This document shows, one piece after another, positions 1 to 3,000 of a stretch of DNA of 55,961 bases. Location: contig JAQBYT010000024.1 in assembly GCA_027622665.1 (NCBI GenBank), forward strand, positions 1 to 55,961, in the 5' to 3' direction. The number at the start of each line of letters is the position of its first letter. Position 1 is the stretch's first letter. The position numbers were made by a program. The DNA is from Verrucomicrobiota bacterium (lineage in GTDB: Bacteria > Verrucomicrobiota > Verrucomicrobiia > Opitutales > Seribacteraceae).

Positions 1-3000
1 ATTGACTGGGCTTGGCGTTCAAGCCCTCGGAGTTGCCGTTCATCACGGTTTCGTACTGGGCCTGCGTAAGCTCGTATTTCCCGAGGTAGAACCCGTTGGT
101 CAGGGTGACGGAATGCTGGGTTTCGTCTCCGCCTCGCCCCGTTTCCGAGGAAGGACTGCCCATGGTGAAAGTTCCCGGCGGGCAGAAGATCATCTGCATC
201 CCGATGGAGGCCACGGAATGGTTGGTCGGCGTGGCGTCCACCTGGAGGCCGGTGGGCGAGGAAGTGACCGACCCGAAGTCGTTGCTCACCACGAGCGTGT
301 AGTTGCCGTCGTGGAGGGTGCCGTTGACGTCGGCGATGACCAAGGTGGACCCGGTGGCCCCCGCGACGGGTTGCCCGTTGCGGTTCCATTGGTAGGTGAG
401 ATACTTGCCCTCCGTCTGCGACGCGAGGGTGACCGACTGCCCGCCGAAGACCAGACCCGGAGCTTGCGGGGAGGTGGTGATCTCGGGGCGAAGGTATTTC
501 AATATGGACTCGCTCAGCTGGGCGGTGGTGATGGTGTTCGCGGCAATGTCGGTTGCCGTAACCGTGCGGTTGAGGTCGGAGAGAATGTCTGCGGGGAAGC
601 GTGAACGAGCAATTGTGCCGTTGAGATCGGCCCGAACCTGCGGGGACAGCTTGTCGAGAGTAATGGAATCTGTGCCTATGGTTTGATTCAAGTCGGCCAG
701 AACGTCGGCGGCGAGGCGTGAACGGGAGATGGTGGCGTTTAGGTCCGCAAGCACGTCGTTCCCCAATTGGCTCTTTGTAATCGTGCGGTTGAGGTCGGAT
801 AGGACGGAGGCGGGGAGATCGCCACGGGTGATCGTCTTGTTCAGGTCGTCCAGAACGTCGCCGGGCAGCATATCGCGGGTGATGACGATGGTTCTATTGA
901 GATCGGCTAGGACGTCGGCTGGAAGATCGGTTCTTGAAAGGGTACGATTGAGGTCTGCCAACACGCTTGCCGGGAGCATGGAACGGGTGATGACGACCGA
1001 CCGGTTGAGATCAGCCAGCAAGGCGGGAGCGAGTTGTCCGGCGGTTATGGAACCGGGAGCGATGGTGGCGTTGAGGTCGGACAATACGCCGGGGGCGAGC
1101 ATGGAGCGGGTTATGCTTCCGGTTTGAATGGTGGCGTTTTGCTCGGGGAGGACGACGGTGGCGTTGAGATCGGCGAGGACGTCCGCGGCGAGCATGCTTT
1201 TGGTGATGGCTCCGGGCAGGACGGCTTTGGCGAGGTTCGCCAGGTTTGCGACATCGGCGGCGAGGGCGTGTGGAGCGGATGTGATACGCTGGTCGGGCAG
1301 CATGTGTAGCCATTGCTGCGTGTCGGCCCGGTAGAACTTCACATCAAGGTAAAGCTCGGAGTGGTCGAGGAAGAGATTACTCGGGATCGGACTCATGCCC
1401 TGCCCGCCGAGGAGGACGACGTAGAGACCGCGATCGACGGGCACGTTGATAGAGGCGTTGGCATCGGTGCCGTTTCTCCAATGCACGGTGCCGTGGGTAT
1501 CCCGTAGGGCGAAGGTGAACTGGGCGTCGCCTTGGAAGTTGGCCCCGTTGATGGCCACCTTGCCCGAATAGGGTATGGGTGCGGCGACAGAGGCAATGGC
1601 AGAGAACCCCATGGCGAAGCAGAGAAGCAATAGTGGTGATCCAGGGAAAGAGCGTATGGACGATTTTTTCATGAGGGACGACGATGGAAGAGGGTCACAC
1701 TTCCCGAATGGGGAAGGATAGACGATCGGATTGGAGGGCAACCATGCTTCCTCTACTCGAGCTAGCGTATGGTCGGAGGGCCGATTGAGGAAAGGTGAGG
1801 AAGCGCGGATTAGGGCTGTGCGATTTCGACCGACTTGGTGGTGTGGTTATAGAACGCCTTCTTGGGGCGGGCTTGCAACATGAAGTAGAGCCAAGTGGAA
1901 TCCTTCGCACGATATAGGTGAGGGTAGACGCCTTGCCCGGTCCAGAGCCACTGGTGGTTTTGGTCCCACATCCAAAGGGAGCCATCGCCGGCTTCCTGCA
2001 TGAAGAGCCAACCGAGGTCGGCGTGGTGGAGCCAGCTTTTGTCAGTAGCATAGAAGGAACCGAACCAAGGGGAGTTTTTCCACCCGGGGGCATTCGGCAC
2101 ATCCACGGAACCGGCGATAAGGGAAGATGCCGGGCCGGCGGAAGGAGCGGCGGCGTTGGGCTCGAGACGTACGCGCACCTCGGCAGTCAAGCCTTCGGCG
2201 GTGGCGGTGACCGTAACCCGCACGCGGTCGGTGACCTGAGTGGCGGTAAGAAGACCGGACAGGGAAACGGTGGCAAGTGCGGTGTCCACGGCCCAAGCGA
2301 CTTCCTCGGAGGGAAGGTTGGTGACGGTGCCGTCGTCCAAGAGAAGACTGCTGGCCAACTGTGTGGCGGAACCGGCGTTGATATTGGAATCGCCCGAACG
2401 GGCAATGAGACGCAAGGGTTGTATGAAGTCGGCAGTGGGGCCCACGGCGTTGGCAACGGCACCCGAGGCATCGGAAGTGAACCCGTAGAAGGGGGCTCCG
2501 ATTACGGCTTGGTTCACTACCGGCCCCGCAGAGGAGGTGGCGGCAGAGAGAGCGAAAGGCAAAAGAGATAGGAATGTGGAAAGGGACAGAACTTTTTTGT
2601 ACATAGCAGTAGGTGGTTTGGTGCAAGTTTGCGCGTGTGCGTGAGGAGGGTCAAATGGAAATTTAGTTTTTTTGGATTTAACAAAAGTAGATGGGAACGA
2701 ACGGGCGGGATTTCGAAAATGGGAGATTCAGTGATGATCCAAGTAGAATGTTCACGCTCGACTTGCCCTTCCTGATTGAACAAGATGAAAGGTGATGACT
2801 GGCCGAGTTTTTATGTTTTTCATAGTTGTTGCTCTAGCCGGAACGAATGCCTTCGGCATGACCTTCGATTTTCGCACCCCCGAACAGTTCAACACGATAA
2901 AGGTGAGCATCAATACCTCTTTCGGGAGCGGACAACTAGAAGGAGAAATTCGGGGAGCGAGAGGGACTATTGAATTTCCCATGGAGCGACCAGAGGCGGC

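What a model noticed while it worked through the whole genome (the two positions that open the first line are those of the whole stretch)
2..2604. Multi-copy mosaic surface-fibre family with invariant N-terminal domain, 17-aa repeat stalk and swapped heads
Seven loci (C11, C20, C22, C25, C3, C35, C44; a stalk piece on C30) encode signal-peptide proteins that share a 72-96% identical, Pfam-less ~140-aa beta-sandwich N-domain, a stalk of ~17-19-aa ITRSMLxADVLADLNRT repeats and an Ig domain, then interchangeable heads (FGE-sulfatase/C-lectin fold, RCC1, Kelch, LamG, glycine-rich, GH5). One copy follows a single-copy gene (g00461, Ig-like domain plus sorting tag) that is a candidate shared anchor. 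The build parallels Bdellovibrio MAT fibres in a non-predatory lineage.
Evidence so far: tblastn finds the N-domain at 7 loci, 6 at contig ends. Present in 17 of 18 family genomes with 1-8 copies and 2 of 12 other-family genomes. 2,019 representative proteins match at E<=0.001. Pfam scan of 37 long members gives at least eight head types; the two most distant carry a C-terminal S74 chaperone, typical of trimeric fibres. Model pLDDT 85, beta-sandwich, best fold hit only Z 7.0; no PDB sequence hit. g00461 orthologues in 24 of 29 family genomes, directly upstream of a fibre gene in 13 of 24 loci. PMC10769870 (passages, call 61) describes MATs with an invariant N-domain lacking PDB homologues and does not mention Verrucomicrobia.
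(Added by a program. Inside this text positions count along the whole contig: contig position 1 is position 1 of the stretch shown here. "Call 12" and the like, gene names such as g00115 and contig names such as C1 are that model's own, and its searches are not shown. The text may have been shortened before it was handed on; [...] marks where a part breaks off. The agent that wrote the report below was given it as the finding of a first reader that could run no searches.)

Follow-up and report, generated by a model that had tools for sequence, protein, structure and literature searches.

The report
Glycosylated MAT fibres with docking anchor
A marine bacterium carries a set of swappable-tip surface fibres related to the prey-grabbing fibres of Bdellovibrio, and the small gene beside one of them looks like the so far unidentified kind of protein that holds such fibres on the cell, while the fibre stalks appear built to be coated with sugars.

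Summary
In detail: seven genes share a ~115-aa N-domain, a 17-19-aa repeat stalk, an Ig domain and variable heads. Three things are added. (1) The N-domain is homologous to the Bdellovibrio MAT N-domain (HHalign 96.7%, 103 columns; shuffles 1.9% at most). These are non-S74 MAT-superfamily fibres; MATs outside predators are already listed in the MAT paper's supplement. (2) g00461 belongs to an unnamed partner family: a short beta-hairpin module plus a variable surface tether. Relatives lie beside MAT-like genes across Verrucomicrobiota, in metagenomes (24 of 25 long loci) and in one Bacteroidota record (T9SS-sorted). A 3:1 model scored 0.87 against a best control of 0.00 (mark passed by 116 of 157 solved and 2 of 215 mismatched pairs; roughly applicable). 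No partner was found in Bdellovibrio. (3) Each stalk repeat ends in the bacterial N-glycosylation sequon D/E-x-N-x-S/T (15 sites; 0.4 expected), and a Campylobacter-type PglB occurs in 20 of 24 family genomes and 0 of 16 other Opitutales. Binding, trimer and glycans are predicted, not measured. The scan noted MAT-like fibres and partner genes on other DNA before.

The parts
2..1672 (-). MAT-superfamily fibre gene (P0001, 557 aa, 3' end cut by the contig end)
1583..1672 (-). Signal-peptide-like N-terminus of the fibre (residues 1-30; read by eye, no predictor run)
1241..1582 (-). Conserved beta-sandwich N-domain (residues 31-144), homologue of the Bdellovibrio MAT N-domain; strand 1 is the predicted docking edge
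497..1216 (-). Repeat stalk, 17-19-aa units each ending in D-L-N-x-T/S; 12 of the 15 D/E-x-N-x-S/T sequons lie here
239..490 (-). Ig domain between stalk and head (2 further sequons)
2..217 (-). Start of the FGE-sulfatase-like (SUMF1) head, truncated
1673..1809 (.). 137-bp spacer between g00461 and the fibre gene; crossed by contigs of three metatranscriptome runs; no terminator-like site on the - strand
1810..2604 (-). g00461 (P0002, 264 aa): single-copy candidate docking anchor
2422..2541 (-). Docking module (residues 22-61): two hairpin pseudo-repeats predicted to add strands to the fibre N-domains
2155..2421 (-). Big_2-like Ig domain of g00461; one hairpin of it also contacts the fibre in the model
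1825..2091 (-). Trp-rich domain found in 33 ORFs of the genome (21 within 40 aa of the C-terminus), many of them very large; inferred surface-sorting or tether domain

Best explanation
A modular fibre-display system. The cell exports several MAT-superfamily fibres, each a probable homotrimer: conserved base (N-domain), repeat stalk, Ig spacer and an exchangeable binding head. One single-copy partner, g00461, is held at the surface by its Trp-rich C-terminal domain (inferred). Its short N-terminal module threads between the three N-domains and adds an antiparallel strand to the first strand of at least two of them, so one socket can hold any fibre of the repertoire. A Campylobacter-type PglB probably N-glycosylates the sequon at the end of each stalk repeat, giving a sugar-coated, extended stalk. 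Shown by computation: homology, gene linkage, sequon bias, PglB presence. Modelled: the 3:1 complex. Inferred: trimer, surface tethering, glycan attachment, and an adhesive role of the heads (ligands unknown; glycans of particles or other cells are most likely).
For: MAT homology: the family profile gave 33 hits (E 0.004-0.92) in 5 Bdellovibrio genomes, all in 522-2316-aa ORFs. 30 of 30 read were N-terminal domains behind a signal-peptide-like stretch; the other 3 coincide with MAT-profile hits. 11 of 23 full ORFs carry S74; one matches 8OML = Bd1334 at E 5e-92. HHalign 96.7%, E 4e-10, 103 columns; 94.5% without the three distant rows, 40 column shuffles at most 1.85%, reversed 0.5%; bridge set 99.4% and 98.0%; unrelated control 0.15%; same strand order in both models. 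Partner: directly upstream of a fibre in 12 of 17 family loci. Family partner vs 7 other-family partners 97.8% over 123 columns, and those vs the small type 92.3%. Partner-first search of metagenomes: MAT-like gene in 24 of 25 loci with at least 3 kb upstream (16 directly adjacent), 41 of 41 on the same strand, 36 of 79 loci overall; 14 of the 43 others have an upstream ORF ending in an S74-like motif. Background about 0.01 per 10 kb (121 hits in ~131 Mb, summed by hand). 4 of 6 phylum hits from genomes or contigs not used to build the partner profile lie 0.7-2.1 kb from a MAT-like gene. Flammeovirga: fibre gene followed after 8 bp by a T9SS-sorted protein with the module at its N-terminus (E 7e-6 in a two-sequence search). 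Complex model: score 0.87 (0.87/0.88/0.87), best of 3 controls 0.00, mark reached by 116 of 157 solved and 2 of 215 mismatched pairs (rough here: own alignments, 3+1 chains); runs agree in at least 95% of contacts, partner pLDDT at least 89, and 57 when the fibre is replaced. No PDB sequence match to the N-domain or the module, so memory of a solved complex is unlikely. Glycosylation: 15 sequons vs 0.39 shuffled (max 3 in 500); 59 family fibres 729 vs 39; 14 Bdellovibrio MATs 12 vs 13; 11 other Verrucomicrobiota fibres 7 vs 9. D/E at -2 in 56% of N-x-S/T sites with stalk repeats masked vs 8% background, not at -1 or -3; T/S follows in 319 of 325 stalk D/E-L-N motifs. PglB in G000, 20 of 24 family and 0 of 16 other genomes; best PDB match C. 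lari PglB, E 5e-43, WWDYG kept.
Against: Nothing was measured. MAT homology is remote: the MAT profile finds nothing in G000 at E<=0.1 (best E 2.9); the Bdellovibrio set was picked by the family profile, and the half not used for picking gives only 20% alone. The short g00461 module aligns directly to the generic module at only 26% and 6%; the link runs through the Ig-bearing type. Five fibre-positive family genomes (51-95% complete) lack a detectable partner; 5 of 17 partners have no fibre within ~1.1 kb downstream. The partner profile hits 15 of 201 phylum genomes against 35 for the fibre, and 2 of the 15 have no fibre hit. No credible partner in 5 Bdellovibrio genomes. The third fibre copy makes few contacts in the model, and the tool scored only the partner, not the trimer. 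Interface columns are only slightly more conserved (0.63 vs 0.56, p=0.07). S74 is not listed for any family member. Stalk sequons are copies of one repeat and are not independent. The metagenome loci include near-duplicates (L291/L295).
Confidence: 0.66

Rival explanations
1. g00461 binds the N-domains only transiently, as a trimer-nucleating chaperone or export pilot; something else holds the fibre.
For: The model cannot tell lasting from transient binding. Family fibres list no S74 chaperone, so an external folding aid is plausible. One partner serves seven fibres.
Against: Partners also accompany S74-bearing fibres (16 of 39 outside fibres carry S74). Partner C-termini are surface-sorting or tether-like: T9SS CTD, dockerin, TSP3, Trp-rich domain of giant ORFs.
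Confidence: 0.14
2. The partner is only co-inherited with the fibre (for example a second adhesin in the same operon) and the modelled complex is a false positive from promiscuous strand pairing.
For: Gly-rich beta-strand peptides can pair with exposed edges; the job is outside the tool's calibration; many fibre-positive genomes show no partner; none in Bdellovibrio.
Against: Three controls scored 0.00 and runs agree in at least 95% of contacts. The only part shared by all partners is the module that forms the interface, while tethers and heads vary. Linkage is 24 of 25 in a partner-first search.
Confidence: 0.1
3. The D-L-N-x-T motif is a structural cap of the stalk repeat and is not glycosylated; PglB serves other proteins.
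For: Repeats multiply one motif; no glycan was observed; the residue equivalent to PglB R331 lay outside the printed alignment.
Against: The -2 D/E bias persists with stalk repeats masked (56%) and in 33 unrelated Trp-domain ORFs (54%, 215 different 5-mers). It is absent from MAT-like fibres of other lineages and tracks PglB at family level.
Confidence: 0.12
4. The fibres are tail fibres of prophages, tailocins or other released particles, with g00461 as baseplate adapter.
For: Distant members carry the phage-type S74 chaperone.
Against: Signal-peptide-like N-termini; neighbours in the window are YceI and housekeeping-type genes; no match in 50,697 phage records with one distant N-domain query; single-copy partner kept across five genera... 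four of the five genera sampled.
Confidence: 0.04

Closest known systems
Bdellovibrio bacteriovorus MAT (mosaic adhesive trimer) fibres, non-S74 subgroup (Caulton et al. 2024, PMC10769870)
   Same: Signal peptide followed by a homologous beta-rich N-domain; multi-copy repertoire; conserved base, variable tips; an FGE tip is already listed for one Bdellovibrio sp. (Table S3); no clear PDB homologue of the N-domain.
   Different: No Cys-containing ~25-aa insert in the N-domain; a different stalk made of sequon repeats; Ig spacer and RCC1, Kelch, LamG or GH5 heads; a linked candidate anchor that was not found in Bdellovibrio; no Verrucomicrobiota/Opitutales entry in the main text or Table S3.
Campylobacter PglB N-glycosylation system (C. 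lari PglB, PDB 6GXC/5OGL/3RCE)
   Same: Single-subunit STT3-family enzyme with WWDYG and the conserved membrane-domain motifs; acceptor bias for D/E at -2 (rule as in PMC4894442).
   Different: Different phylum: the passages read place lipid-linked N-glycosylation mainly in epsilon- and deltaproteobacteria and Aquificae. Longer enzyme (1089-aa ORF). Predicted acceptors are giant surface proteins with tens of sequons in tandem. Glycan unknown.
Bacterial Ig-like group 2 (Big_2) proteins such as Leptospira Lig
   Same: The middle domain of g00461 matches Big_2 structures weakly (E 5e-4 to 0.02).
   Different: The match starts at profile position 41; the docking module (1-40) has no match in Pfam, NCBIfam or PDB sequences.
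One-anchor, many-client surface display (cohesin-dockerin cellulosomes; recalled analogy)
   Same: One tethered socket, interchangeable clients sharing a docking domain.
   Different: No homology claimed; here the client is a trimer and the socket is a short strand-donating module.

Membership tests
MAT superfamily | Conserved beta-rich ~130-aa domain right after the signal peptide | tested here: met
   HHalign 96.7% over 103 columns, controls under 2%; Bdellovibrio set verified as MATs
MAT superfamily | Mosaic build: conserved base, diversified tips, several copies per genome | tested here: met
   7 copies in G000, up to 8 matches in relatives; eight head types
MAT superfamily | Homotrimeric fibre | tested here: inconclusive
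   Three copies folded at pLDDT 91 in the complex job, but only the partner was scored; trimer inferred from homology and from S74 in 16 of 39 outside relatives
MAT superfamily | Surface display and adhesion | not testable with these tools
   Needs microscopy or binding assays
MAT S74 subgroup | C-terminal Peptidase_S74 chaperone | tested here: not met
   PF13884 not listed for 60 homologues or 28 family proteins (only the best 5 families are shown per protein); the window copy itself is truncated
PglB-type N-glycosylation | STT3/PglB enzyme with catalytic motifs | tested here: met
   PF02516 and PF21436 over cut-off, WWDYG in 7 of 7 orthologues read, C. lari PglB E 5e-43
PglB-type N-glycosylation | D/E-x-N-x-S/T sequons in exported proteins | tested here: met
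PglB-type N-glycosylation | Arg equivalent to C. lari R331 (reads the -2 acid) | tested here: inconclusive
   Region not covered by the printed alignment; a conserved Arg follows the TIRE motif in 4 of 7 loci where the motif was captured; the equivalence is recalled, not aligned
PglB-type N-glycosylation | Lipid-linked glycan pathway (flippase, initiating transferase) and actual modification | not tested
   Pathway genes not searched; modification needs mass spectrometry

The most novel reading that the evidence does not exclude
The g00461-type hairpin module is a widespread, unnamed socket for MAT-superfamily fibres. One pseudo-repeated peptide donates strands to the base domains of a trimer and is fused to whatever surface-sorting domain the lineage uses (T9SS CTD in Bacteroidota, dockerin-like, verrucomicrobial C-terminal domains). 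In this marine Opitutales family the fibres are also N-glycosylated bottle-brushes made by a PglB system not reported in the phylum in the papers searched.
Probability: 0.55. Interest if true: 0.88.

Novelty: new variant of a known kind. Interest (0 to 1): 0.8.

Why it matters
[quoted passage not shown] This locus supplies a small, testable candidate with a residue-level interface, and the same pairing occurs in a culturable Bacteroidota species. If true it explains how secreted, anchorless trimeric fibres of a family with over 5,000 representatives are displayed, and suggests where to look on the Bdellovibrio N-domain (strand 1). The PglB link would extend bacterial N-glycosylation to a Verrucomicrobiota family and give a natural tandem-sequon substrate and a divergent oligosaccharyltransferase.

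Tried and rejected
Pfam and NCBIfam: nothing for the N-domain, stalk, docking module or Trp-rich domain. ESM Atlas: only unnamed Verrucomicrobiota clusters at 0.94 for the N-domain, 0.80 (a lead only) for the small partner. Fold searches: Foldseek no hit at E<=0.001; VIA best Z 7.0 (rmsd 3.1, 85 aligned) and 6.2 (rmsd 3.1, 86 aligned) for the family and MAT models, generic beta-sandwiches, which shows neither kinship nor novelty; the two models could not be superposed directly. A bd3182 primer pattern found nothing in genome contigs; no HD100 record appeared either, so other Bdellovibrio strains stood in. Partner profiles on Bdellovibrio: 2 weak hits each, none credible, and none near 20 MAT regions. 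Plasmid and phage tblastn: 0, 0, 1 and 0 records. Third pseudo-repeat in the generic module: repeats 2 and 3 align at 78%, repeat 1 at 3%, so three-fold pseudo-symmetry is only a suggestion. L222-L224 partners were recognised by eye and not by the profile; the profile marks 13 of 20 neighbourhood loci, 11 of them used to build it. One weak phylum hit (L201) looks like an off-frame chance match and was left out of alignment A6. No promoter-like site. No contig end extends the window gene; no DNA contig covered 1-286 in the one DNA run laid. Literature: searches listed no paper naming a MAT anchor, Verrucomicrobiota MATs, Opitutales N-glycosylation or the Trp-rich domain; most subscription journals are outside the library; supplement file 2 of PMC10769870 was unreadable.
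Full report
Observation. Window 1672->2 (- strand) encodes a 557-aa exported-type protein cut by the contig end: N-domain (31-144), repeat stalk, Ig domain and the start of an FGE-sulfatase-like head. 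The N-domain occurs at 7 loci of the genome, 6 at contig ends. The C30 stalk piece overlaps the C25 end by 69 exact bases and continues into Ig, two Bact_surface_Ig-like domains and a glycine-rich head, so it is probably the rest of the C25 gene. The C22 copy has a frameshift and a ~1-kb, 43%-GC insert between its halves; the far half has an RCC1 head. The domain is in 21 of 24 family and 2 of 16 other-family genomes. Two homologues are named 'Opitutales bacterium'; the runs holding the locus are marine, estuarine or aquatic. Eight head types occur. A 22-row profile finds 5,464 representatives at E<=0.001.

Homology to MATs. In PMC10769870 (abstract, sections 10 and 16, passages, supplement 1 parts 4-5 read) all 21 MATs have a conserved beta-rich ~130-aa domain after the signal peptide; it has no PDB homologue and its surface partner is unidentified. 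I reached Bdellovibrio genomes through a published 16S primer (PMC3628794, passages). The family profile gave 33 weak hits in 5 genomes, all in long ORFs. All 30 read are N-terminal domains, and the other 3 fall on hits of the MAT profile, which finds 16-26 copies per genome in 3 genomes. 11 of 23 full ORFs carry S74; of two tested against the PDB, one matches Bd1334 (8OML) at 5e-92 and the other only S74-type chains. The two profiles align end to end at 96.7%; controls give 1.85% at most and 0.5%, and 0.15%. A third, generic set bridges them at 99.4% and 98.0%. Predicted strand order agrees, with a Cys-containing insert in MATs. Against this: the reciprocal search of G000 is blank at E<=0.1 and the first half alone gives 20%. 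I file the fibres as non-S74 MAT-superfamily members; the trimer is inferred. Table S3 already lists MATs in Oligoflexia, PVC (Ca. Uabimicrobium), Alpha- and Deltaproteobacteria, FCB and Omnitrophica, so occurrence outside Bdellovibrio is not new; Verrucomicrobiota are not listed. Whether this family is predatory was not tested.

The partner. g00461 has a signal-peptide-like start, a 40-aa module, a Big_2-like domain and a Trp-rich domain found in 33 ORFs of the genome. Its N-part is single copy in 16 of 24 family genomes and directly upstream of a fibre in 12 of 17 loci. G008, G020 and G022 lack both genes; five other fibre-positive genomes lack a detectable partner. In 20 fetched neighbourhoods of more distant fibres, a profile of the g00461 N-part hit 7 neighbouring ORFs, 6 directly downstream. 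Other loci carry a smaller protein with the module only: 13 of 20 by profile (11 used to build it), 3 more by eye. The chain of homology is family partner to Ig-type 97.8%, Ig-type module to small type 92.3%; the direct comparison is weak. A partner-first scan of metagenomes returned 79 loci: a MAT-like gene lies in 24 of 25 loci with at least 3 kb upstream, always on the same strand (41 of 41), and in 36 of 79 overall. Background is about 0.01 per 10 kb. In 201 phylum genomes the partner profile hits 15 and the generic fibre profile 35; 13 of the 15 have both; 4 of 6 untrained hits are 0.7-2.1 kb from a fibre gene. In Flammeovirga kamogawensis a 'tail fiber domain' gene with the N-domain is followed after 8 bp by a T9SS-sorted protein starting with the module. 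Partner C-termini vary: mostly a ~80-aa domain in 94 of 120 homologues by a crude motif rule, also dockerin, TSP3 and FG-GAP. No partner was found in Bdellovibrio.

Complex model. Three N-domains (70-row alignment) plus one partner (24 rows) scored 0.87; best of 3 controls 0.00; the mark was reached by 116 of 157 solved and 2 of 215 mismatched pairs, counts that hold only roughly here; runs agree in at least 95% of contacts; partner pLDDT at least 89. Partner residues 1-40 and 66-75 (chain numbering) form the interface. Strand 10-14 pairs antiparallel with strand 1 of one protomer and strand 29-33 with strand 1 of another; the third protomer has few contacts. Partner pLDDT falls to 57 without the fibre, suggesting folding on binding. 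Distant partners have an extra N-terminal segment that could fill the third site; it aligns to the other two repeats at only 3%, so this is a guess. Neither chain's interface part has a PDB sequence match. The model supports binding; it does not show it.

Glycosylation. Each stalk repeat ends in D-L-N-x-T/S. P0001 has 15 D/E-x-N-x-S/T sites against 0.39 in shuffles; 59 family fibres 729 against 39; Bdellovibrio MATs and other Verrucomicrobiota fibres show no excess. With stalk repeats masked, 56% of N-x-S/T sites have D/E at -2 against 8% background, with no excess at -1 or -3; 33 Trp-domain ORFs show 54%. This is the 'minus two' rule of Campylobacter PglB (PMC4894442, passages). G000 encodes an STT3/PglB at C43:2663-5929, as do 20 of 24 family genomes and 0 of 16 other Opitutales; its only PDB matches are Campylobacter-type PglB chains, and motifs are kept in 7 of 7 loci read. 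In the phylum sample 7 of 201 genomes pass the Pfam cut-off, G000 included, so STT3-like genes are rare but not unique to this family. PMC4973528 (passages) calls the pathway restricted to delta- and epsilonproteobacteria. The one N-domain sequon lies outside the modelled interface. No glycan was observed.

Expression. Contigs of three metatranscriptome runs lie across 1-2640 with small gaps and cross the 137-bp spacer; none covers 2641-3240, where a DNA run goes on. This fits a two-gene transcript but contigs cannot show one.

Verdict. A real, new variant of the MAT system. The fibre family is known in kind; the docking partner and the sequon stalk with its PglB were not found in the papers searched (PMC13689555 passages, add no anchor). 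Earlier scan notes describe MAT-like fibres with an unknown docking partner or with partner genes in other genomes; I did not test their sequences. The cohesin-dockerin analogy and the R331 position are recalled and come from no alignment here.

Noticed in passing
G000 C43:2663-5929 (-), L318: Campylobacter-type PglB/STT3 conserved across the family (20 of 24) and rare elsewhere in the phylum; the next gene (C43:3-2438, FG-GAP repeats) has 43 extended sequons against 1.3 expected.
   Followed up: partly
G000, 33 ORFs, e.g. window 21250-28575 (+), C3:2-12658, C22:58126-73149: A ~90-aa Trp-rich domain with no Pfam or NCBIfam match sits in many large ORFs (up to 5008 aa), 21 of 33 near the C-terminus; candidate lineage-specific sorting or tether domain. 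These ORFs are also sequon-rich.
   Followed up: partly
G000 C22:127566-132018 (-), L319: Fibre copy broken by a frameshift and a ~1-kb 43%-GC insert with a 285-aa ORF without Pfam match; pseudogene or mis-assembly.
   Followed up: partly
G003:C68 (L026, L052): The fibre next to the partner has a Ser/Thr/Asn-rich extension of about 100 aa between signal peptide and N-domain.
   Followed up: no
L327 (Flammeovirga kamogawensis plasmid p1, KM029_RS25050 and RS25045): MAT-like fibre and T9SS-sorted partner pair in a culturable Bacteroidota species; a possible genetic test system.
   Followed up: partly
L216, L231-L309, P0219-P0338: Small (~150 aa) partner proteins end in a ~80-aa domain with a conserved aromatic-Arg-Leu end and no Pfam match; possibly another verrucomicrobial sorting domain.
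   Followed up: no
G109, G192, G243: Some Verrucomicrobiota genomes hold 12-18 MAT-like N-domains, near the Bdellovibrio count, often in tandem pairs of ~360-aa genes.
   Followed up: no
L218 (G036:C75): Fibre gene split in two ORFs and followed by a protein with a PEP-CTERM-like tail (read by eye) in place of the usual partner.
   Followed up: no
P0062, P0063, P0064: Representatives with three N-domain matches in one chain; not examined.
   Followed up: no
window 2792-3445 (+): YceI-like gene divergent from g00461; not covered by RNA contigs over most of its length in the three runs laid.
   Followed up: no
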